From: Escherichia coli
Lineage (GTDB): Bacteria > Pseudomonadota > Gammaproteobacteria > Enterobacterales > Enterobacteriaceae
Length of the DNA stretch: 64,000 nucleotides
Direction: 5' to 3' (one strand)
NCBI RefSeq assembly: GCF_024700885.2
Contig: NZ_CP117016.1
The position numbers were made by a program, and so were the translations under genes. Below are positions 3,165 through 43,815 of this stretch, one piece after another (within the stretch, counting starts at the first letter, position 1; each line of letters starts with the position of its first letter). Below the pieces are notes generated by a model, which was given only the letters and a program-made list of their open reading frames with translations, did not search any database and was not told the origin of the DNA.

Positions 3165-5303
3165 TTAACCTATCTGCCCATTTCCCAAATGTTTAACGCG
3201 GCGCTTAACTTCTTCCTGCTTACCAGCGTTAAACGGACGTGCATCCGGGCTACCTAAATATCCGCACACGCGGCGAGTCACCGATACACGGGAGGTGTCA
3301 TGGTTACCACATTTCGGACAAGTGAAGCCTTTACTAGTGCACTCGAACTCACCGGTAAAGCCACACTCGTAGCACTCATCGATCGGCGTATTGGTGCCGT
3401 AATACGGTACATGCTGATAGCTGTAATCCCAGACATCTTCCAGCGCCTTCAGGTTGTGCTGAATGTTTGGATACTCGCCGTAGCAAATGAAACCACCGTT
3501 CGCCAGCGGCGGGTAAGGCGCTTCAAAGTCGATCTTGTCGTATGGGTTCACCTTCTTCTCCACATCGAGGTGGAAACTGTTGGTGTAGTAACCTTTATCG
3601 GTCACGCCCGGCACCACGCCAAACTCAGCGGTATCGAGACGGCAGAAGCGGTCGCACAGGTTTTCACTTGGCGTGCTGTAGAGACTGAAACCGTAACCCG
3701 TTTCTTCTTTCCACTGATCCACTGCCTGACGCAGACGTTCAACAATTGCGATACCTTTCGCGCGAAGCTGCTCGTTGTCGTAAACATGCTCGCCGCCGAA
3801 CAGCGCGTTAATGGTTTCGTGGATGCCGATGTAACCCAGCGAAATAGACGCACGACCGTTTTTGAAGATTTCAGAAACATCATCGTCAGCATTGAGACGC
3901 ACGCCACAAGCACCTTCCATATAGAGGATCGGGGCCACGCGCGCTTTCACGCCTTCGAGACGAGCGATACGGGTCATCAGCGCTTTACGTGCCAGCACCA
4001 GACGTTCATCCAGCAGCTTCCAGAAGGTGGCTTCATCGCCTTTTGCTTCCAGAGCAATACGCGGCAGGTTCAGGCTGATCACGCCGAGGTTGTTACGACC
4101 ATCGTGGATCTGCTCGCCGTTTTCATTTTCCCACACGCCGAGGAAGCTGCGGCAGCCCATCGGGGTTTTAAACGAACCGGTGACTTTCACTACCTGATCG
4201 TAGTTCAGGATATCCGGATACATGCGCTTGCTTGCGCACTCCAGCGCCAGCTGTTTGATGTCGTAGTTCGGATCGCCTTTTTTATGGTTCAGACCATCGC
4301 GAATTGCAAACACCAGTTTCGGGAACACCGCAGTTTTACGGTTTTTACCGAGGCCTGCGATACGATTACGCAGGATAGATTCCTGAATCAGGCGCGATTC
4401 CCAGCTGGTGCCCAGACCAAAACCAAAGGTTACAAACGGTGTTTGACCGTTGGCGGTGTGCAGGGTGTTTACTTCGTACTCCAGCGACTGGAAGGCATCG
4501 TAGCACTCTTTGATGGTACGAGAGTTAGCGTAGCCTTCGGCGTCCGGGATGTTCCACTCTTCTGCGGTCTTGCGATGTTTGTTGTAGCTGGCGGTGACAA
4601 ACGGTGCCAGCACTTCATCGATACGGTTAATGGTGGTGCCGCCATAAATATGGCTGGCGACCTGGGCAATAATCTGCGCAGTTACCGCGGTTGCCGTAGA
4701 GATCGACTTCGGCGGTTCAATCTCGGCGTTCCCCATTTTAAAGCCCTGGGTCAGCATGCCTTTCAGGTCGATCAACATGCAGTTGAACATCGGGAAGAAC
4801 GGTGAGTAATCGAGATCGTGATAGTGAATATCACCACGTTCATGTGCCTGCACCACGTCACGCGGCAGCAGGTGCTGGCGTGCATAGTGTTTAGCCACGA
4901 TCCCGGCCAGCAGATCGCGCTGGGTTGGAATCACCTTGCTGTCTTTGTTGGCGTTTTCGTTGAGCAACGAGGAGTTGGTCTGCTCGACCAGACCACGGAT
5001 CTCCTGGTTCAGGCGGCCGCGTTTTTCACGTTCAATGTCGCGATCGTGACGGTACTCGATGTAAGCACGAGCCAGTTGTTTGTATGGACCCGACATCAGC
5101 TGGTTTTCAACTGCGGTCTGGATCTCATTGATATCCACCTGGTTGCGGCCCTGCATCTGCTCGCTGACAACCGCAGCAACAGTGGCGCAATAATCGGCAT
5201 CATCGACTTCCGCTGCTTTAGCTGCACGCAGAATCGCTTCTTTGATGCGCTCTGATTTAAACGGCACTTTGCAGCCGTCTCGTTTCATCACATGCGGTGT
5301 CAT
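3165..5303 (-). CDS. nrdD: Anaerobic ribonucleoside-triphosphate reductase (class III)
   Basis: 712-aa product; C-terminal glycyl-radical region (RVCGYLGSP) and Zn-ribbon cysteines. Confidence 0.95.
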   Translation of the reverse strand: MTPHVMKRDGCKVPFKSERIKEAILRAAKAAEVDDADYCATVAAVVSEQMQGRNQVDINEIQTAVENQLMSGPYKQLARAYIEYRHDRDIEREKRGRLNQEIRGLVEQTNSSLLNENANKDSKVIPTQRDLLAGIVAKHYARQHLLPRDVVQAHERGDIHYHDLDYSPFFPMFNCMLIDLKGMLTQGFKMGNAEIEPPKSISTATAVTAQIIAQVASHIYGGTTINRIDEVLAPFVTASYNKHRKTAEEWNIPDAEGYANSRTIKECYDAFQSLEYEVNTLHTANGQTPFVTFGFGLGTSWESRLIQESILRNRIAGLGKNRKTAVFPKLVFAIRDGLNHKKGDPNYDIKQLALECASKRMYPDILNYDQVVKVTGSFKTPMGCRSFLGVWENENGEQIHDGRNNLGVISLNLPRIALEAKGDEATFWKLLDERLVLARKALMTRIARLEGVKARVAPILYMEGACGVRLNADDDVSEIFKNGRASISLGYIGIHETINALFGGEHVYDNEQLRAKGIAIVERLRQAVDQWKEETGYGFSLYSTPSENLCDRFCRLDTAEFGVVPGVTDKGYYTNSFHLDVEKKVNPYDKIDFEAPYPPLANGGFICYGEYPNIQHNLKALEDVWDYSYQHVPYYGTNTPIDECYECGFTGEFECTSKGFTCPKCGNHDTSRVSVTRRVCGYLGSPDARPFNAGKQEEVKRRVKHLGNGQIG

Positions 5304-7352: not shown

Positions 7353-7401
7353 TACGTTATTCCTGCAAATGCGAGGGGGCGCAATTGCGCCCCGAAGAAA
7401 A

Positions 7402-24970: not shown

Positions 24971-25005
24971 AAAAAAGGCCGGAGCATGCTCCGGCCTTCG
25001 TTTTC
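24971..25005. terminator. Bidirectional intrinsic terminator between yjgN and valS
   Basis: Hairpin AAGGCCGGAGCATGCTCCGGCCTT flanked by A-run and T-run. Confidence 0.6.
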
Positions 25006-35418: not shown

Positions 35419-35503
35419 GCCGAAGTGGCGAAATCGGTAGACGCAGTTGATTCAAAATCAACCGTAGAAATACGTGCCGGTTCGAGTCCGGCCTTCGGCA
35501 CCA
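35419..35503 (+). tRNA. leuX: tRNA-Leu (anticodon CAA)
   Basis: 85-nt sequence GCCGAAGTGGCGAAATCGGTAGACGCAGTTGATTCAAAATCAACC...GGTTCGAGTCCGGCCTTCGGCACCA with long variable arm and encoded CCA. Confidence 0.9.
35479..35503 (+). repeat. Island junction (attL-like): leuX 3' end, repeated at 41077-41101
   Basis: 25-bp GGTTCGAGTCCGGCCTTCGGCACCA present twice in direct orientation. Confidence 0.75.
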
Positions 35504-36016
35504 AGTCACTAAATTCCTTACAATACAGGTAGTTAGACAATAAAATCTGTCTCTTTTGCCTGTAAGAAATGCTCTGTTATGTCCCTTGAAAAAGCCGCTG
35601 TGGTTGATAGTGGTAATTGGGATGTTAACTCATAGCGGCGTGTAGTTCCAAGCGTCAAACACGTACTGACTCAACTTGAAAGCTATGACGTAGCCACTGT
35701 CTCTAAACAATCCCAAAAACTTTTAGTGAAGCGCATTTTAGCCCGATGCCCCCGTTCTGCCGCTGTCGCGAGACGCCGCAGGGGATAAACAGGTTTATGG
35801 TGGTCACGGTACTTGCAGACCATATGCAAGCTCTGCCAGCGGTTCGGCCTCGCTCCCCTTGGGTACATGGTCATCCTGATAAGCCTCACTAACTGACATA
35901 ACTGTGATGTAGTCGCCAGAGGCTCCGCTTGTTGTCTTACCACCAACGGGGCTTTATGGATTCTATTGCGGTATGTTTGAAAGTGCGCGGGGGTTCATTC
36001 CCGCGCGTCCGGCGCT

Positions 36017-36931
36017 TTATGGTAAGTATTTAAGTATTTCTGCTGCCCAGTTTACACGGTGGATGACACGGGCATGGTGCAAGTTTCCGTCTAGTATTTC
36101 GGCTTTAGTTAGCTGGGATAACTGCTGCCAATTATTGTTAAGTATATAAGTTGCGTTATTACATTGTGAGCTTTCTAGCACGTAAATGTTTTGGCCTGTG
36201 AACCCAAATATCACGTAGCCTTGGAACCCAGCTTGCCCAACCGCTACGAAATCTGGTTTTTTACTATTGATAAGTTCAAGTCTGCCTTCAACAACAGCGG
36301 TATTGCCCTTTCCCCTGATCTTAATAGCTGAAAGGATTTTTGAGCCGATAGTACTCCAAGGCTGTTGACCCTGAGGCAGGAGGCTCCAGTTTAGTTTTAT
36401 AGATTTACTTTTAACGATGGTATTAAGTTGGTCGTCAACAGTTTCGCACAACCCAAAAAGCTCTAAAAAAAGATTAATGCAGTGAGCCACTAACTCTTTG
36501 TTGTTAGCTGTCAAACTTAGCTTTGGAGAGATGATCAACTTCTCCCCTTGAAGATTCTCTACAATCTTTAACTCTATGCTTGGTGGAGGGGTGAGGATTC
36601 TCTTGTAGCGCTTATACTCAATTTCACGAGTGTCAGTAACTTCTTGAGTTGCGCCCCCTCCGATCCATTGCTTTCTAGTCCATGAAATTTGTCTGTATGC
36701 AGTTTCTTTAGGTGCTGTTTTGTCAGGTACTGATTTGCCATTAGCATTGAATCTGGTTATTGGCCCTAAAATCTTGGGGAGGACTTCTTCACCTAAAGCT
36801 CTTTGACTTGAGAAACCAATAGAGTCCGTTTTCCCCGCATCTGGCAAAGAATGTGCAATGTAGATATCACGGCCATCAAAGTTAGGTATGTAATTATCAA
36901 TATTTCGAATACGCTTTTTCTGAATAAGCAT
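36017..36931 (-). CDS. Hypothetical protein, 304 aa, no family recognised by eye
   Basis: Long ORF with SD (AAGGAA) upstream of ATG; first gene of the island next to leuX. Confidence 0.6.
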   Translation of the reverse strand: MLIQKKRIRNIDNYIPNFDGRDIYIAHSLPDAGKTDSIGFSSQRALGEEVLPKILGPITRFNANGKSVPDKTAPKETAYRQISWTRKQWIGGGATQEVTDTREIEYKRYKRILTPPPSIELKIVENLQGEKLIISPKLSLTANNKELVAHCINLFLELFGLCETVDDQLNTIVKSKSIKLNWSLLPQGQQPWSTIGSKILSAIKIRGKGNTAVVEGRLELINSKKPDFVAVGQAGFQGYVIFGFTGQNIYVLESSQCNNATYILNNNWQQLSQLTKAEILDGNLHHARVIHRVNWAAEILKYLP

Positions 36932-37058
36932 GGATCGTTCCTTTTGATTTTATCTTACTGTTTACATAACCAACCAAGCCGGGCACAATCGAGCCGTTAG
37001 AAACGATAGTGAGGCTAACAATCGTTATGAGTTTGCAGACTCATGGCGGTCATGCTTC

Positions 37059-37094
37059 ATAGACCGGATTCACGCAGGTGACTCCGGTTTTTTT
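37059..37094 (+). terminator. Orphan plus-strand intrinsic terminator
   Basis: About 10-bp stem (CCGGATTCAC / GTGACTCCGG, one mismatch), GCAG loop, followed by 7 T; no plus-strand ORF upstream. Confidence 0.5.
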
Positions 37095-37782
37095 ATGCCC
37101 ATCATTTATACATGAGCACAACATATAGGGTGTGTTAATAAGATTACCCCCTACATGTTCAGCATTCTAGTTAGGATTCTTTGCAGTACAAGGGGTGATT
37201 TTGAGGTTAAATTGAGGTTGTCAAAGGGAAATTTCGACCAACCCTACGTGCCGTAAGGCTTAGGCTGTATGTCAATGTTTCAGAAAAAAAATGAAAATTT
37301 GATCGAGTGCTGATTTCTTTAGCACGAGAACATGAGATCGAACCAAAATATTGCAAAGTTTTGAACAAAACTTGAGCTGCCTCGTGTCTCCATAGCCAAG
37401 ACGAATGCAGTTTAAATAAGCTAAGTCAGCTCTCAAAAGTCCTTTATGACCCGAACCAAAAATTGTACCTCTTAAACCCCCACCGCAAGCGGCTCTCCGG
37501 GGTTTGTGCGCGTGGAGTAATGCGATTGTACTGGGTATGTGCGCACAACCCTCTACAAGCCGCATTCTACCGTTAGCCTATAGCTGAATCCCCGGCTTGA
37601 AAAATTGCACGCTTATGGTTGCCCCTCCCTCAACTGTATAGCTCGCCCGCGCCCCCGTGCGCATGTGCGTGCCCGCGCGTCAGGGGTCGCTGAGAAAACC
37701 CTAAGATTTTGCTCATCCGAGACAACCGTTGCAGGCGCGCGTTGCCGGGGCACACTGTTAGTGTTTGATGGTGTCATCAATC

Positions 37783-37892
37783 GACCGTTTTCTGGCACCT
37801 CCCAATCGCACGCTTTCACACTGTTGGAAAAATAGCCTTGGCTTTTCTGGCAGGCCATCCTAATGTTGGCCTCGTTTTCTGGCAGGGGTCAG
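37783..37892 (+). repeat. Three direct repeats of (C)GTTTTCTGGCA upstream of the recombinase gene
   Basis: cgaccGTTTTCTGGCAcc, ggcTTTTCTGGCAgg, ctcGTTTTCTGGCAgg at about 37789, 37843 and 37875. Confidence 0.4.
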
Positions 37893-37906
37893 ATGGGGAG
37901 ATAACA

Positions 37907-38467
37907 ATGGCAACTTTTGGCTACGGACGTGTTTCGACATCGCAGCAGGATACTGAGAACCAACGGCTGGAGCTTGGGCAGGCTGGGTGGCAAATTGATT
38001 ACTGGTTTGCCGATGTTGTTAGCGGGAAGGTTCCGGCAATGCAACGTAAAGCATTTTCTGAAATGCTCAATAAAATCCGCGATGGTGAAACGTTGGTGGT
38101 AGCGAAGCTTGATCGTCTGGGGCGTGATGCGATTGACGTCCTGCAAACGGTAAGGGCGCTGGCTGACCGTAATATCAAGGTTCTTGTCCACCAGCTTGGT
38201 AACACAGATCTCACTTCTGCCGCTGGGAAGTTGCTATTATCTATGCTCGCCGCGGTTGCGGAGATGGAGCGTGATCTGCTGATTGAGCGCACTCAGGCGG
38301 GACTATCACGAGCAAAAGCCGAAGGTAAGAAATTGGGCAGACCTCCTAAAATCGCGTCAGAAGCCCGTAGAGAGATTTTAGAGAAAAAGAATAGCGGTTT
38401 GAGTATCAGTGCGTTAGCGCGTCAATATGGCGTTTCAAGAGCGACTGTAGCAGCTATTACCGATTGA
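37907..38467 (+). CDS. Small serine recombinase (resolvase/invertase family)
   Basis: 186-aa product from MATFGYGRVSTSQQD (catalytic Ser motif), C-terminal HTH; SD GGGGAG upstream. Confidence 0.85.
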   Translation: MATFGYGRVSTSQQDTENQRLELGQAGWQIDYWFADVVSGKVPAMQRKAFSEMLNKIRDGETLVVAKLDRLGRDAIDVLQTVRALADRNIKVLVHQLGNTDLTSAAGKLLLSMLAAVAEMERDLLIERTQAGLSRAKAEGKKLGRPPKIASEARREILEKKNSGLSISALARQYGVSRATVAAITD

Positions 38468-38480
38468 ATATGGAGAGTTT

Positions 38481-39326
38481 ATGGCTTACACAGCAACTGT
38501 TATCCCTGTAATGATTGCTTCTCCTGGTGATGTCGCTGAAGAGAGACAAGTCATTCGTGAAATGATCCATGAGTGGAATGATATAAATTCAGCTCGTTCA
38601 AAAGTAATGTTGACACCAATTGGATGGGAAACTCATACATCACCCGAATTAGGAGTTAGGCCTCAGAAGTTGATTAATCAAAGATTATTAGTAGATTGTG
38701 ATTTATTAATCGGTGTGTTTTGGACTCGTCTAGGCTCACCGACTGGGAACGAGGCCAGCGGAACAGTCGAAGAAATCCACCGTCATTTGAATGCGGGAAA
38801 ACCGGCAATGATTTACTTTTCCTCAAAGCCTGTTGCCCCTGAAAGCCTTGATAGAGAACAATATGAGTCTCTTAAATTGTTCAAAACTGAGTGCATGCAA
38901 AAGGGATTGATAGAGTCTTTTAATGACTTATCTGATTTCAAAGACAAAGTCCGTAGGCAACTTTCGATAATTATTTCTAGTAGCCCTTATTTGTCTTCTC
39001 TTATATCTACCATTAACAATTCTCCTGATGCGAATACAAGTCAATCTTTGCCAGAAAGTAATTTGTCCGCCGATGCACTCAGTTTGCTGAAATTGGCATG
39101 TGTCGATGATAGCGGAACAATTTATGTGATAAGGCATTTAGGTGGCACGGATATTCAAGCGGGAAATCAATCCTTTGGTGGAAGTTCGGCTAGAGAGGTA
39201 GCCCGTTGGGAGGGCGCACTTAACGAACTGTTATCCTTTGATTATGTGATTGAAAGAGGGGCAAAAGGACAAATGTATTATGTTACTCATAAAGGCTGGA
39301 CATTTCTTGAATCTTTAAATGAATAA
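38481..39326 (+). CDS. Hypothetical protein with DUF4062/TIR-like-looking N-terminal domain, Ser-rich linker and small C-terminal domain
   Basis: 281-aa ORF 14 bp after the recombinase gene; N-terminal pattern VIPVMIASPGDVAEERQ ... CDLLIGVFWTRLGSP ... GKPAMIYF; domain call is by eye only. Confidence 0.55.
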   Translation: MAYTATVIPVMIASPGDVAEERQVIREMIHEWNDINSARSKVMLTPIGWETHTSPELGVRPQKLINQRLLVDCDLLIGVFWTRLGSPTGNEASGTVEEIHRHLNAGKPAMIYFSSKPVAPESLDREQYESLKLFKTECMQKGLIESFNDLSDFKDKVRRQLSIIISSSPYLSSLISTINNSPDANTSQSLPESNLSADALSLLKLACVDDSGTIYVIRHLGGTDIQAGNQSFGGSSAREVARWEGALNELLSFDYVIERGAKGQMYYVTHKGWTFLESLNE

Positions 39327-39362
39327 TTAAATGCGAGGCCATTACATAAGTTTATTTTTGAT

Positions 39363-39391
39363 GTGAGGGTGAATTCCCTCACATTTTTATT
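39363..39391 (+). terminator. Intrinsic terminator after the recombinase/DUF4062-like gene pair
   Basis: Hairpin GTGAGGG-tgaatt-CCCTCAC followed by ATTTTTATT. Confidence 0.6.
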
Positions 39392-39881
39392 CGAAAGAGG
39401 CCGCAATGACTTCTCCTGTTTTTGCGTTGAAAACACAAAAGTATTGAAGCGGAGCTAGCATCCCCAAGCCGTTAACTACCTTAGCTTGTTGCCCAAATGC
39501 CTGAATAATCTTCGCATTCTCATCGTGCCAGAGATAAGTATTAAATACAGGCGCTTCGCTTTCTTGCCACACATGGCGAAACTTCGCTTTCTCATCCATT
39601 ACCTTTTTGCACTCCCTGACCGGGTTATGGTGCGTTTTCGCATAGCATTCCGGGTTGTCATCTGCACATACGATATCTTTTCGTGCTGTCTGATGCTCAG
39701 CACCTACAGCAGAAAAGGCGCATACGCCCAGCACCAATGAGAGAGTGCCCAGAGCACCCCATACAGTTGCGCGTAGCGTGCTGATGTGCTGCTTTGATAC
39801 AGCATGGGCAACTACACTATAACTGGCCCAGCTAATCGCGGCTCCCGCTGCAATCGGTAGTAAAAAGTCTGCTCCCGTCAT
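39387..39881 (-). CDS. Hypothetical small membrane-anchored protein (two N-terminal TM helices, Cys-containing soluble C-terminus)
   Basis: ORF 39387..39938; start preferred at Met 39881 with GAGGG SD; no family recognised. Confidence 0.5.
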   Translation of the reverse strand: MTGADFLLPIAAGAAISWASYSVVAHAVSKQHISTLRATVWGALGTLSLVLGVCAFSAVGAEHQTARKDIVCADDNPECYAKTHHNPVRECKKVMDEKAKFRHVWQESEAPVFNTYLWHDENAKIIQAFGQQAKVVNGLGMLAPLQYFCVFNAKTGEVIAASFE

Positions 39882-40121
39882 GATTCCCTCACTTTCCAAA
39901 CCACATCGCGCCTGATAGCGAACGCTGGTGACGCCCAACCGATGATGATCATCATACTTGTTGGGTTTTAAATGTCACCATTGGTGTTTGTTTTGAATCA
40001 AAAAGGATTGTCATGATACAGCCGATGAATGCTAGTGACTAAGCTCGCTGACGTGAGATTGGATTCAAAATATCTCATATGGAGCGTGGCCTTACAGTGG
40101 TCAAAATTGCACATTCAGTGC

Positions 40122-40586
40122 ATGAAAAAATCCCTGAGAATACAGTTTGGCGAGCGGGTAAAAGAACTGCGCATTGCCACCGGATTGAGCCAGGAGGCCT
40201 TTGCCGATCGGTGCGGGTTTGCACGTAGTTATATGAGCAGAATTGAACGTGGTGGCTCTAATGCGTCTCTGGATGCGATTGAGGTGCTGGCTAACGCTCT
40301 GAGCGTTGAGCCGTGGCAGTTGTTAGCGCCTGGCCCATCTGAAGATAACGACTCGGAACTGTTGGTTCCATACGCAGCCGATGGTTCCTGTTTTCACCCC
40401 GGTTTGGCGAGCACCCGTGATGGCTCGTTTGGCGTAGGTGATAAAGCGGCTCAGAAGCGTTTTGGCACGTTTGCTGAAGCTCTTGAGTATCTTCGTAGCA
40501 TGGAGACAGCAAAATGGCGTAGGCCTAATCCTAGCGGCAACTGGGGTATCGTATCAGCGGTTCGGTGGGACAAACTGAGAAAGTAG
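40122..40586 (+). CDS. XRE-family HTH transcriptional regulator with about 90-aa C-terminal extension
   Basis: Cro/C1-type HTH (LRIATGLSQEAFADRCGFARSYMSRIERG); divergent from the membrane protein gene. Confidence 0.65.
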   Translation: MKKSLRIQFGERVKELRIATGLSQEAFADRCGFARSYMSRIERGGSNASLDAIEVLANALSVEPWQLLAPGPSEDNDSELLVPYAADGSCFHPGLASTRDGSFGVGDKAAQKRFGTFAEALEYLRSMETAKWRRPNPSGNWGIVSAVRWDKLRK

Positions 40587-41076
40587 CTCAAGTGTAAGTT
40601 TATGAATTTTCATGCTGTATGGATGAACAGTATTCATTAGATGCTGATAGTCTTATGTTTCATCAGCCCTTTGTTTCTATAAGAGTGAATAAAACAGCAA
40701 AATGCGGGTGCGTTACGTAGGCGTTACGGTGGCGTTTCGCTTTGGCTCTTAATGGCTTAATTCATATAAATAACATTGAGTTAAATAGTTATTCTGAACA
40801 AGGTCTGCCGGGGTCTAACTGGTTTCAAAATCCGAACGCAGTGGCGTTTATTCAACGTCCACATAGCTGACAAATGTTCTTTCCTCCCGACTCGGCAGAC
40901 CTCCAGAAACATTAAAAGGCAGGTATGGCACGTTGATGTTTTATGCCGCCACGAACACTCGGTTTGATTCCGTCCAGCGGATCAAACTTAATATGTAGCC
41001 CCTAGAACAAAAAGGTCCTACGATTGCTCTCTTAACAGCTAACAGGAACGTGATTACAGCAGGTTATAGAGACTTA

Positions 41077-41101
41077 GGTTCGAGTCCGGCCTTCGGCACC
41101 A
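41077..41101 (+). repeat. Island junction (attR-like): displaced copy of the leuX 3' end
   Basis: Second copy of GGTTCGAGTCCGGCCTTCGGCACCA, followed by the expected tRNA terminator hairpin. Confidence 0.75.
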
Positions 41102-41114
41102 AAAGTATGTAAAT

Positions 41115-41140
41115 AGACCTCAACTGAGGTCTTTTTTTAT
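41115..41140 (+). terminator. Intrinsic terminator following the displaced leuX 3' end
   Basis: GACCTC-aact-GAGGTC followed by TTTTTTT. Confidence 0.55.
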
Positions 41141-41287
41141 GCCTGAAATCCAGTGTTTATCTATCTTTCCCGCTATATTAACTCTCTCAAGGTCAACCGA
41201 TATCAACGTACATCTACCAACATATGTTGGTACAGATGATGGTATTTCCGGTTCGATAATGCTTGTACCAACAGGGAGGGAATACGC

Positions 41288-41878
41288 ATGGCATTAACAG
41301 ATATCAAAGTCAGAGCAGCCAAGCCAACGGATAAGCAATATAAGCTGACTGATGGTGGCGGTATGCATCTGCTTGTCCATCCAAATGGTTCTAAGTACTG
41401 GCGTTTGCAGTACCGTTATGAGGGAAAGCAAAAAATGCTGGCACTTGGGGTTTATCCTGAAATCACACTAGCGGATGCCAGAGTACGTCGTGACGAGGCG
41501 CGTAAGCTGCTTGCGAATGGCGTCGATCCGGGAGACAAAAAGAAAAATGATAAGGTTGAACAGAGTAAAGCACGAACCTTTAAAGAAGTCGCGATTGAGT
41601 GGCATGGCACCAATAAAAAGTGGTCTGAAGATCACGCCCATCGTGTGCTAAAAAGTCTTGAAGATAATCTTTTTGCAGCGCTTGGTGAACGTAATATCGC
41701 TGAGTTAAAAACTCGAGATTTATTAGCACCTATTGTTCCTTTAACCATCCGCAATGGCCAACGGTTTACAGAGCATAATACGAATAGCCGTAGAGCCAGC
41801 CAGTTACGGTGGTCGCGATGGTGTGTCCGCCAGAAAATCACCACGAATACCAGAATCGCGGCACTGACCAGAAAATGA
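41288..41878 (+). pseudogene. P4-type tyrosine integrase, N-terminal fragment (truncated or frameshifted after about 150 aa)
   Basis: N-terminus MALTDIKVRAAKPTDKQYKLTDGGGMHLLVHPNGSKYWRLQYRYEGKQK is typical of P4-family integrases; the catalytic domain is absent. Confidence 0.75.
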
Positions 41879-42372
41879 TAAACAGGAAACACGGGGAGGT
41901 TCACTTTGCTTTCTCCTGTAGTATTTTCTGTAGGTTCTGAACCGGTTCGAGCGGGGTTGTGAGGCTGATGGCAATCCCCGGGCTCTTCCTGCATGTTACA
42001 CTGGTACTGCAACAGGGGGCCTTCGCTCCTATGACATTACTCAGTATTTTCACTACTACACCCCATCTGCCATCCATAACAACCGATTCACCCCCTCGGG
42101 AGGCGTTGTTGCCCGTCACCCGGACAGGCATCGTTATGGACTTCTCTTGTTGCACGATCGATCAATTGTTATGCATGCTGACACCACTACCCCGGTGGGT
42201 ATGACCGATGCCTTTCTCACTCTCTTCCCGGTCATCGTCGGCCTTCCCCGTTATTGTGGCGTGTCGGCACCATCGACGGCATTTCGATGGCTGCTCAGTG
42301 TTCACTCACGTTACGGCCCGCATAACCCATTGACTTCCTGAAGAAGTCGTTTCAGGGAGAGATTCAGCCCTT

Positions 42373-43358
42373 TTGTTACCTCCTGGACCGCTTCCTGTCC
42401 TTCCAGTTGGAGCGAGAGTTAGTCGGGGCGGACTTTCACCGACGGAAAGATCGTGCATTTCAAGGCACACACAACAATATCTGCGAGCGTGCTATCCGTC
42501 CGGTCGTTATGGGACGAAAGGCCTGGTTGTTCGCTGGTTCACTGATGGCCGGGAACCGAGCGGCACAGATAATGAGCCTTCTGGAAACAGCAGTCTGGAG
42601 CCACATGCTTGGCTGACGGACGTCCTAACGCGTCTGCCCGGAGTGGCCGGAGGAGAGGTTGGCAGAGTTACTGCCTCTTGAGGGCTTTACCTTCTTTGGG
42701 TAAGTGATACCTGCCGTCAGGTGTTTGTGCACCGGGCCATAACCTGCAGTTGGGAATTGAACGCCTGACAACAGGAAATGAGCTAGAGCAGTAAACACGC
42801 GGGCTGACAATGGGTCAGAATATGAGTCTGCCCGGCGTTATTCTTGGGGTCAGTACTTCAGATCCAGCCTCCGGTACCAGACTAGCTAGCCCCTACGCAA
42901 CCAAATAAATCAACCATCGTAAGAGTGCAATCGTTCATATACACTGCCGGTGATGGGCGGAAAAATGCGTTAATGTTGAGTTCCTCGAACCCTTACCAAT
43001 TAAGGGACATAGCCAGATACGCAACTGGCTGATGCAAGCAGTCTGATGTCTTTAGATTCGCTGGCCTGCGGGCATGACAATGTCAAACAGTCAAAGATTG
43101 TGGCGTTGACGGTCAGTCTGGGTCGTAAAAACTTCCTGTTCTTCGGCTCTGACCATGGTGGTGAGCGGGGAGCGCTACTGTACAGCCTGATCGGGACGTG
43201 CAAACTGAATGACGTGGATCCAGAAAGCTACCTTCGCCATGTGCTTGGCGTCATAGCAGACTGGCCGGTCAACCGGGTCAGCGAACTGCTTCCGTGGCGT
43301 ATAGCACTGCCAGCTGAATAACACATCCCCGTCAATACGGCCCTCGCTGTACGCTTAC
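42373..43358 (+). mobile_element. IS66-family transposase remnants (two C-terminal fragments), right end at about 43358
   Basis: Fragments with GRKAWLFAGS and LGRKNFLFFGSDHGGERGALLYSLIGTCKLNDVDPESYLRHVL; terminal ...ACGCTTAC matches the IS66 right end at 57116. Confidence 0.55.
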
Positions 43359-43434
43359 GATTAGTGGTGGTGTCTTCCAGTGCGAGGAGCAGCGGATGAG
43401 CCTCACATGCCCTTGCAGTGGCGGTAAATCCGGC

Positions 43435-43815
43435 TTAGGCAATGGCTTCCGGGGACACAGACGGGTTACGTATCAGGCGGTACGCACTTTCAACCTGAGC
43501 AGTGGAGTGGGATGATTTCACAATAGAAAGACCTGCATGCTGAGCGAGAGAAGAGGCCAGTGACACAAGGCGTCGTGTACGACGCGGATCACCGAGACGG
43601 GCATGTCCAAACTGCTCGTTATCCCATGAATAACAATCAGAAAGTACCATAACAGACCCGAAGAAAATGAAATATAAGAGAAGATCAACGGGTGAAGAAA
43701 AAGTTCAAAAAATCGCTGCCGGGGAGGAAGGAAACTACCGAATGGAAAGAGTCCCCCTAAAGCAGACTGACAGACATCACAAATCCCCGGGTGGGGATTT
43801 GTGTATAAGAGACAG
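43435..43815 (-). mobile_element. IS4-family (IS50-like) element remnant: terminal inverted repeat plus transposase N-terminal fragment
   Basis: Fragment ARLGDPRRTRRLVSLASSLAQHAGLSIVKSS...AYRLIRNPSVSPEAI resembles the IS50 transposase N-terminus; end sequence CTGTCTCTTATACACAAA at 43798-43815. Confidence 0.55.

What the first reader, a model, noticed from the sequence alone, without database searches (positions are those of the whole stretch)
41150..41878. Truncated P4-type integrase with a palindromic half-site array in its promoter
Only the N-terminal 150 aa or so of the integrase are recognisable, so the older island is probably immobilised. Upstream, an 18-bp perfect palindrome TACCAACATATGTTGGTA (41215-41232) and a third copy of GTACCAACA (41264-41272) look like binding sites for an integrase regulator or excisionase.
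Basis: partly seen in the sequence, partly recalled or inferred. Interest (0 to 1): 0.35.

Follow-up and report, generated by a model that had tools for sequence, protein, structure and literature searches.

The report
Dead integrase with its arm-binding sites
This is the broken remnant of a P4-type island integrase gene next to the E. coli leuX tRNA site, and the "palindrome" upstream of it is part of a four-copy set of the integrase's own arm-type docking sites, an ordinary and expected feature of this family.

Summary

The truncation is real. Relative to K-12 it is a 3.5-kb deletion fusing intB to a yjgX/eptA-like fragment. The same junction is in 445 complete E. coli genomes.

The array is four 8-bp sites of TGWTGGTA: A(-), B(+), C(+) and D(-).

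B and C are tandem with a 12-bp period and D is inverted. This is the layout of the annotated "attP arm sequence repeats" of phage P4.

In four other P4-family lineages B, C and D change in concert with the integrase type. Two tandem TGTTGGTA copies lie 77 and 65 bp left of the core at the far end of intact IntB-type islands such as PAI II536, in register with P4's P-arm repeats.

The sites are therefore most likely arm-type sites for the integrase's own N-terminal domain (P' arm of attL). They probably also serve as its autorepression operator. They are unlikely to be excisionase or regulator sites.

The element is immobile: no catalytic domain, no attR and no excisionase gene were found. Ordinary; low interest.

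The parts
41077..41101 (+). 25-bp duplicate of the leuX 3' end. It serves as the att core and direct repeat, marking the left boundary (attL core) of the IntB-type element. The intact leuX is at 35419-35503.
   Evidence: the alignment to K-12, where this position is the real leuX 3' end
41115..41139 (+). leuX intrinsic terminator copy: stem-loop at 41115-41132 followed by a T-run.
41147..41159 (+). Tentative IHF-type site AATCCAGTGTTTA, with 1 mismatch to WATCAANNNNTTR. It would be the H'-like bend site between the core and the arm sites.
   Evidence: perfect matches sit at the same offset (+43 to +45 from the core end) in L014 and L015. This is inference only.
41215..41222 (-). Arm-type site A (TGTTGGTA on the minus strand), the left half of the perfect palindrome. 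It is present only in the IntB lineage.
41225..41232 (+). Arm-type site B (TGTTGGTA), the right half of the palindrome and first unit of the 12-bp tandem.
41237..41244 (+). Arm-type site C (TGATGGTA), the second unit of the 12-bp tandem.
41250..41257 (+). Conserved GGTTCGAT box between sites C and D. TTCGAT is invariant in all seven P4-family lineages aligned. It overlaps the best -10 candidate, GATAAT at 41255-41260. Its function is unknown.
41266..41273 (-). Arm-type site D (TGTTGGTA on the minus strand), inverted and directly 5' of the ribosome-binding site GGGAGGG (41274-41280).
41288..41734 (+). intB' : the authentic 149 N-terminal codons of a P4-family tyrosine integrase. It keeps the complete arm-DNA-binding domain and about half of the core-binding domain.
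41735..41878 (+). 47-codon unrelated tail plus stop codon, created by read-through across the deletion junction.
41731..41889 (-). Fragment of a phosphoethanolamine-transferase (yjgX/eptA-like) pseudogene abutting the deletion junction.

Best explanation
The region is the attL end of a decayed KpLE2/PAI II536-type genomic island integrated at the leuX tRNA site.

Layout. Between the att core (the leuX 3'-end copy, 41077-41101) and the integrase start codon (41288) lie four 8-bp arm-type sites, TGWTGGTA. These are A(-) at 41215-22, B(+) at 41225-32, C(+) at 41237-44 and D(-) at 41266-73.

In an intact element (inferred). The N-terminal arm-binding domain of the island's own P4-family integrase would bind these P' sites and two tandem copies on the P arm at the island's other end. 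The C-terminal domains would bind the core. The bridged intasome would carry out integration and excision. The sites fill the short space that must also hold the int promoter, 5' UTR and RBS, so integrase occupancy would also repress int, as reported for phage P4.

In this window (shown). A deletion of about 3.5 kb relative to K-12 removed the catalytic domain. No attR or excisionase gene remains, so the array is a relic.

Residual activity (speculative). At most, the surviving 149-aa arm-domain fragment could still bind the array if it is expressed.
For: 1. Layout match to P4. GenBank X51522/NC_001609 annotate 'attP arm sequence repeat' as two 12-bp tandem units plus one inverted unit just upstream of or over the int start, and two tandem units left of the core. 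The window's B, C and D align column for column with them.

2. Concerted change across five specificities. B, C and D are TGWTGGTA for IntB and TG(C/T)GGGTA in L008, L009, L016 and L025. They are TGCTGGTA in L015 (at a tRNA-Asn), GTGAGTAT in L023, L026 and L027, and TGGGGGCA in P4. Each goes with a different integrase N-terminus, and the 12-bp period and the inverted D are kept.

3. A prediction that was tested and met. The far end (attR) of PAI II536 has TGTTGGTA twice, with 12-bp period, starting 77 and 65 bp left of the core. The integrase N-terminal region and upstream intergenic DNA of that island are 96.7% identical in DNA to the window. The same is true in two diverged attR copies (about 74-75% identity), where the flanks differ but the sites persist. 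P4's P-arm repeats sit in the same columns. The GTGAGTAT lineage likewise has its own motif at -77/-65 of the next core.

4. The protein keeps a complete Arm-DNA-bind_3 domain (E 1.7e-29). It matches PDB 3JU0 and 3JTZ (E 4e-39 and 4e-23). By my recollection of Szwagierczak et al. [quoted passage not shown]

5. The cluster is far beyond chance.

6. Literature. P4 Int represses its own gene by direct DNA binding near the int start. Overlap of attL with the int promoter generally gives negative autoregulation (PMC2951348, citing Piazzolla 2006). Excision of PAI II536 depends on its own integrase (PMC7545054).

7. Decay in a degenerate copy. L007, a 37-codon int remnant, has lost one site through a 12-bp deletion.
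Against: No binding or expression data exist for this locus, and everything about function is comparative.

No convincing sigma-70 promoter is found. The best candidate is TACAGA-18-GATAAT at 8 of 12 matches, so the autoregulation step is an extrapolation from P4 and KplE1.

Site A, which creates the perfect palindrome, has no counterpart in P4 or in the three other lineages. Its role is unexplained.

The invariant TTCGAT box between C and D shows that something else also reads this region, either a host factor, an RDF or RNA polymerase.

I could not read Pierson & Kahn 1987, Piazzolla 2006, Wilde 2008 or Szwagierczak 2009 directly.
Confidence: 0.85

Rival explanations
1. The palindrome and the extra copy are operators for a separate protein, either an excisionase/RDF of the AlpA/Vis type or a dedicated int regulator, which binds as a dimer to the inverted repeat.
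For: A perfect 18-bp palindrome is typical of dimeric HTH operators. RDFs do bind within attL or attR, and in KplE1 and P4 they also down-regulate int (PMC2951348). The invariant TTCGAT box shows that another factor may bind nearby.
Against: The conserved unit is the 8-bp site, not the palindrome. The palindrome centre varies, it is imperfect in L014, and site A is absent in four other lineages. The same motif occurs as a direct tandem on the far P arm at P4's arm-repeat positions. The motif tracks the integrase N-terminal sequence type. No RDF gene is present in this locus.
Confidence: 0.08
2. The sites are real arm-type sites, but site A plus site B (the palindrome) has gained a separate, IntB-lineage-specific role. 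For example, it could be a high-affinity head-to-head operator used only to repress int, or a binding site for a host factor.
For: Site A is conserved in all IntB-lineage loci examined, down to about 72% identity in L014. It is absent in P4 and the other lineages. It is not needed for the P4-like layout of two P and three P' sites.
Against: There is no independent evidence. A is an exact inverted copy of the arm motif, so the simplest reading is a fourth arm-type site.
Confidence: 0.05
3. A chance repeat or a sequence relic with no protein-binding role.
For: 8-9-mers with one mismatch are common in the window. The GTACCAACA search with 1 mismatch gave 12 hits against 10.9 expected.
Against: The clustering P is about 7e-11. 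The sites are conserved in register across lineages, with concerted substitutions, and are present on both arms.
Confidence: 0.02

Closest known systems
Phage P4 attP/int region (GenBank X05947, X51522; Pierson & Kahn 1987, recalled from memory, not read)
   Same: It uses the same target (leuX 3' end) and the same core, GAGTCCGGCCTTCG. The integrase family is the same, at 52% aa identity over the N-terminal 149 residues. The arm-site plan is the same: two tandem 12-bp units plus one inverted unit just upstream of int, and two tandem units about 77 and 65 bp left of the core. The shared TTCGAT box is present.
   Different: The motif is TGWTGGTA rather than TGGGGGCA. IntB has an extra inverted site, A. 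The P' sites lie 9-11 bp further from the core. P4 has a good Pint (TTGAAA-18-CATAAT) overlapping its tandem sites, whereas no comparable promoter is recognisable here. The gene here is truncated.
PAI II536 integrase/att system of uropathogenic E. coli 536 (Hochhut 2006 and Wilde 2008, cited via PMC7545054; the primary papers were not held)
   Same: The same integrase lineage: 96.7% DNA identity over the intergenic region and N-terminus (H76). The same P' array and the same leuX site. Its attR carries the matching P-arm tandem.
   Different: PAI II536 has a full-length integrase and both att ends, and it excises. The element in this window lacks the catalytic domain, attR and P arm.
E. coli K-12 KpLE2 intB (leuX-adjacent cryptic element)
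   Same: The intergenic region including all four sites is identical to the window apart from a 1-bp deletion just before the ATG, and the N-terminal coding sequence is essentially the same. The downstream context is the same (yjgX fragment, yjhI/yjhH-like genes).
   Different: K-12 keeps the 3' part of int but has a TAG at codon 18, the 1-bp deletion before the ATG and an adjacent IS2. This window has an intact start but a 3.5-kb deletion.
KplE1 IntS/TorI and lambda Int paradigm of arm-type sites overlapping Pint (PMC2951348)
   Same: attL overlaps the int upstream region in the tRNA-int arrangement, with multiple P' arm-type sites near the -10/+1. Negative autoregulation is predicted for this class.
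   Different: A different integrase subfamily, motif and site geometry. Regulation has been demonstrated experimentally there and not here.

Membership tests
P4-family (DUF4102/Arm-DNA-bind_3) tyrosine integrase | N-terminal Arm-DNA-bind_3 domain (PF13356) | tested here: met
   Residues 3-87, E 1.7e-29. PDB 3JU0 and 3JTZ match at E 4e-39 and 4e-23.
P4-family (DUF4102/Arm-DNA-bind_3) tyrosine integrase | C-terminal catalytic domain (PF00589, R-H-R-Y active site) | tested here: not met
   Absent. Homology stops at residue 149. The full-length relative L005 has PF00589 at residues 209-383. It is therefore a pseudogene fragment, not a functional member.
P4-family (DUF4102/Arm-DNA-bind_3) tyrosine integrase | Gene directly downstream of a tRNA 3' end or att core | tested here: met
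   The leuX 3'-end copy is at 41077-41101, 186 bp before the ATG. In K-12 the intact leuX occupies that position.
Integrase arm-type site array (P' arm of attL), P4 type | At least 3 copies of a short motif between the core and the int start, arranged as two tandem units (12-bp period) plus one inverted unit | tested here: met
   B/C at 41225 and 41237, D at 41266(-). They are in register with P4's annotated arm repeats.
Integrase arm-type site array (P' arm of attL), P4 type | The same motif on the opposite (P) arm of an intact element with the same integrase type | tested here: met
   PAI II536 attR and two diverged attR copies have TGTTGGTA twice, at -77 and -65 from the core. It is absent in this window's own element because attR is lost.
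Integrase arm-type site array (P' arm of attL), P4 type | Motif co-varies with the integrase arm-binding domain across lineages | tested here: met
   Five motif and integrase types. Both-arm concordance is seen in three of them: IntB, P4 and the GTGAGTAT type.
Integrase arm-type site array (P' arm of attL), P4 type | Direct binding by the integrase N-terminal domain | not testable with these tools
   Requires EMSA or footprinting.
Negatively autoregulated int (attL overlapping Pint; P4, KplE1) | Mapped int promoter or TSS overlapping the arm sites, and repression by Int | tested here: inconclusive
   No sigma-70 match reaches 9 of 12. The best is TACAGA-18-GATAAT, embedded in the array. Repression is known for P4 and KplE1 only.
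   No AlpA/Vis/excisionase is annotated in the identical genome, and tblastn with P4 Vis finds nothing in the window. The sites are on both arms and track the integrase type.

The most novel reading that the evidence does not exclude
The 149-residue IntB fragment keeps a complete arm-binding domain, its own RBS and all four sites, and its junction is shared by 445 complete genomes. It might still be expressed and act as an arm-site-binding protein. In that role it would repress its own promoter and, in trans, occupy the P and P' arms of incoming PAI II536/IntB-type islands. That would make it a dominant-negative 'immunity' factor at leuX, rather than inert debris.
Probability: 0.06. Interest if true: 0.45.

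Novelty: new member of a known kind. Interest (0 to 1): 0.15.

Why it matters
For this locus it matters little. The finding is a decayed island end with the expected integrase docking sites, and the pseudogene is already flagged by standard annotation.

The useful by-product is a practical rule for the P4 integrase family. There are two tandem 8-bp sites with a 12-bp period at -77 and -65 from the core on the P arm. There are two tandem sites plus one inverted site just upstream of int on the P' arm. The motif is lineage-specific, and five specificities were seen at leuX and asn tRNA sites.

The rule lets one assign each junction in stacked tRNA-site islands to the integrase that can act on it. 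It also lets one predict which ends are still recombination-competent.

Tried and rejected
- Sigma-70 promoter scan of 41000-41400, plus a relaxed hexamer scan. No convincing Pint was found, although P4's annotated Pint was recovered as a positive control.
- Search for attR of this window's element. No core and no P-arm tandem was found, either in the window or in the 45 kb downstream in the identical strain CFSAN061761.
- Search for an excisionase. None appears in the PGAP annotation. tblastn with P4 Vis against the window gave no hit with E below 0.2. Small ORFs were not scanned with Pfam.
- Attempt to confirm both-arm concordance for the tRNA-Asn (TGCTGGTA) lineage. The element in strain 7-58 72A is degenerate with no far-end repeat, so it was uninformative.
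- The 5.6-kb islet's right end (left of 41077) was checked for IntB-type or P4-type P-arm tandems. None was found, so IntB was not its integrase.
- Literature. Piazzolla 2006 and Szwagierczak 2009 were looked up and are not held; a title search showed Wilde 2008 only as a reference in other papers. Pierson & Kahn 1987 was not looked up and is cited from memory. A full-text search for TGTTGGTA plus integrase returned only unrelated primer sequences.
- A GntR/FadR-like host operator reading was considered by eye and rejected. The half-site orientation and spacing do not fit TGGT-N3-ACCA.

Full report
**What is in the sequence.** The window is E. coli chromosome, 100% identical to strain CFSAN061761 over 40900-42100. 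The only tRNA is leuX, tRNA-Leu(CAA), at 35419-35503. A 25-bp copy of its 3' end lies at 41077-41101. So a 5.6-kb islet (35504-41101) sits between leuX and an older leuX-associated element, whose left end begins at 41077. In K-12-like genomes the intact leuX occupies that position directly.

**Checking the observation.** The 18-bp perfect palindrome TACCAACATATGTTGGTA is at 41215-41232, as reported. The extra GTACCAACA copy is at 41265-41273, 1 nt off the reported position. Perfect palindromes of this length are rare: three in the window against 0.28 expected. The other two are GC-rich terminator-type hairpins.

The integrase claim also holds. Residues 1-149 are 95% identical to a full-length 421-aa leuX-associated integrase, and nothing after them aligns. 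Pfam finds a complete Arm-DNA-bind_3 domain (residues 3-87), part of the central domain, and no catalytic domain.

The break is not a sequencing error. Relative to a K-12-like genome, 3,499 bp are missing, covering the int 3' two-thirds, IS2 and most of the yjgX phosphoethanolamine-transferase pseudogene. Collinearity resumes at 41734/41735. PGAP annotates the same pseudogene in the identical strain. The junction is spanned in 445 of 5,426 complete E. coli genomes.

**What the repeats are.** I aligned the tRNA-to-int intergenic region from diverged leuX loci. The conserved unit turned out to be an 8-bp site, not the palindrome, and there are four sites rather than three:

- A, 41215-22, minus strand
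- B, 41225-32, plus strand
- D, 41266-73, minus strand

The consensus is TGWTGGTA. Four exact matches in 59 bp, against seven in the rest of the window, gives P of about 7e-11. B and C form a tandem with a 12-bp period. D is inverted and abuts the ribosome-binding site.

This is the layout annotated in the phage P4 GenBank records as 'attP arm sequence repeat'. P4 has TTGGGGGCATAA and TTGGGGGCATCT in tandem, an inverted copy over the int start, and two more tandem copies left of the core. A seven-lineage alignment puts B, C and D of all lineages in the same columns.

**Covariation.** Each integrase lineage has its own motif, and the motif changes in concert at B, C and D:

| Lineage | Loci | Motif |
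|---|---|---|
| IntB | window, L005, L006, L017, L019-L021, L014 | TGWTGGTA |
| second leuX type | L008, L009, L016, L025 | TG(C/T)GGGTA |
| tRNA-Asn element | L015 | TGCTGGTA |
| third leuX type | L023, L026, L027 | GTGAGTAT |
| P4 | L004, L024 | TGGGGGCA |

The integrase N-terminal sequences differ accordingly. Only TG at the start and A at position 8 of each site are constant.

**A prediction tested.** If these are arm-type sites, the other end of an intact element with the same integrase should carry the same motif on its P arm. PAI II536 of strain 536 has an integrase N-terminal region and upstream intergenic DNA 96.7% identical to the window, and its excision depends on its own integrase (PMC7545054). 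Its far end has the degenerate core GAGTCCGGCCTTCG. TGTTGGTA occurs twice, with 12-bp period, starting 77 and 65 bp to the left of it.

Two diverged attR copies (about 74-75% identity) keep both sites while their flanks diverge. P4's P-arm repeats align to the same columns. The GTGAGTAT lineage shows the same both-arm concordance on one IMG/VR contig and in L016.

In stacked arrays, each internal core is a hybrid. It has the P arm of the upstream element on its left and the P' arm of the downstream integrase on its right. That is the arrangement at 41077-41101. The islet to the left, however, has no P4-type P-arm tandem and no TGWTGGTA, so IntB was not its integrase.

**Mechanism.**

- Shown: the site array; its family-wide geometry; covariation with integrase type; presence on both arms; and retention of a complete arm-binding domain homologous to PDB 3JU0 and 3JTZ. 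The identification of those entries as the HAI7 and HPI integrase arm-binding domains rests on my recollection of Szwagierczak et al. 2009, cited via PMC8138268.
- Inferred from the lambda and P4 paradigm: Int monomers bridge arm sites and core to build the intasome. A candidate IHF site at 41147-41159, at the same offset as perfect consensus matches in two other lineages, would supply the bend.
- Inferred from P4 and KplE1 (PMC2951348): the sites occupy the 155 bp between the leuX terminator and the ATG. Bound Int should therefore repress int.
- Weakest step: no good sigma-70 promoter is recognisable. The best candidate is TACAGA-18-GATAAT, with its -10 at 41255-60. P4's annotated Pint scored 10 of 12 as a control.

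**State of this copy.** It is a relic. The catalytic domain is deleted. No attR core or P-arm tandem exists in the window or in the next 45 kb of the identical genome. No excisionase is annotated or detectable with P4 Vis. In a more decayed copy, L007, one site has been lost through a 12-bp deletion.

**Rivals.** The palindrome is not the conserved unit: its centre varies, it is imperfect in L014, and site A is missing in four other lineages. The motif also occurs as a direct tandem on the far arm and tracks the integrase type.

Two points remain open. Site A is IntB-lineage-specific and its role is unknown. An invariant TTCGAT box (41252-57, within GGTTCGAT) lies between C and D in all lineages, so something other than the arm domain also reads this region.

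**Comparison and novelty.** The closest known systems are P4 attP/int, PAI II536 int/att, and K-12 KpLE2 intB. K-12 intB has the same array but a TAG at codon 18 and a 1-bp deletion just before the ATG. The locus fails membership as a functional integrase because it has no catalytic domain. It meets every computationally testable criterion for a P4-type arm-site array.

I found no open-access description of the TGTTGGTA motif. Wilde 2008 appears only as a reference in held papers and may describe it. I rate the finding a new member of a known kind, of low interest.

**Limits.** There are no experimental data. Several primary papers were unavailable. The excisionase search relied on annotation and one tblastn query.

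Noticed in passing
window 41250-41257 (GGTTCGAT; TTCGAT at 41252-41257): A box between arm sites C and D whose TTCGAT core is invariant in all seven P4-family lineages aligned, even though the arm motif differs in each. It overlaps the best -10 candidate, GATAAT. Its reader is unknown: RNA polymerase, a host factor or an RDF.
   Followed up: partly
window 41147-41159: An IHF-consensus-like sequence, AATCCAGTGTTTA (1 mismatch). It sits at the same offset from the core end (+43 to +45) as perfect WATCAANNNNTTR matches in L014 and in the tRNA-Asn element L015. It is absent at 1 mismatch or fewer in P4 and two other lineages.
   Followed up: partly
window 35504-41101: A 5.6-kb islet between leuX and the 25-bp leuX 3' repeat. 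It has no tyrosine integrase. It carries a serine recombinase (ORF 37838-38467), an XRE-type HTH gene (ORF 40029-40586) and hypothetical genes. Its right end (40900-41151) is 95% identical to the end of SpLE5 in O157 Sakai (H19). It has no P4-type P-arm tandem left of its repeat, so a different recombinase inserted it.
   Followed up: partly
L019, L021, L023, L026, L027, L014, L025, L016 (about 100 bp left of each internal leuX core): In stacked leuX elements the internal cores are hybrids. On the left is the P arm of the upstream element, either P4-type TGGGGGCA twice or GTGAGTAT-type, at -77 and -65. On the right is the P' arm of a different downstream integrase. This suggests that arm-motif divergence keeps co-resident elements from cross-recombining.
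   Followed up: partly
L002 (K-12-like NBRC 3301) 4208-4290 versus window 41288-41345: K-12 intB differs from this window's allele by a TAG nonsense at codon 18 (AAG to TAG) and a 1-bp deletion just before the ATG. K-12 is therefore inactivated differently, and RefSeq starts its CDS downstream.
   Followed up: no
window 7376-7393 and 24978-24995: Two other perfect 18-bp palindromes, GGGGCGCAATTGCGCCCC and GGCCGGAGCATGCTCCGGCC. Both are GC-rich and look like ordinary intrinsic-terminator hairpins.
   Followed up: partly
window 42400-43700: A run of transposase debris directly after the junction: two IS66-family C-terminal fragments and an IS4/Tn5 N-terminal fragment. The yjhI/yjhH-like sugar-acid genes follow. 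This is consistent with heavy IS-mediated erosion of the island.
   Followed up: no
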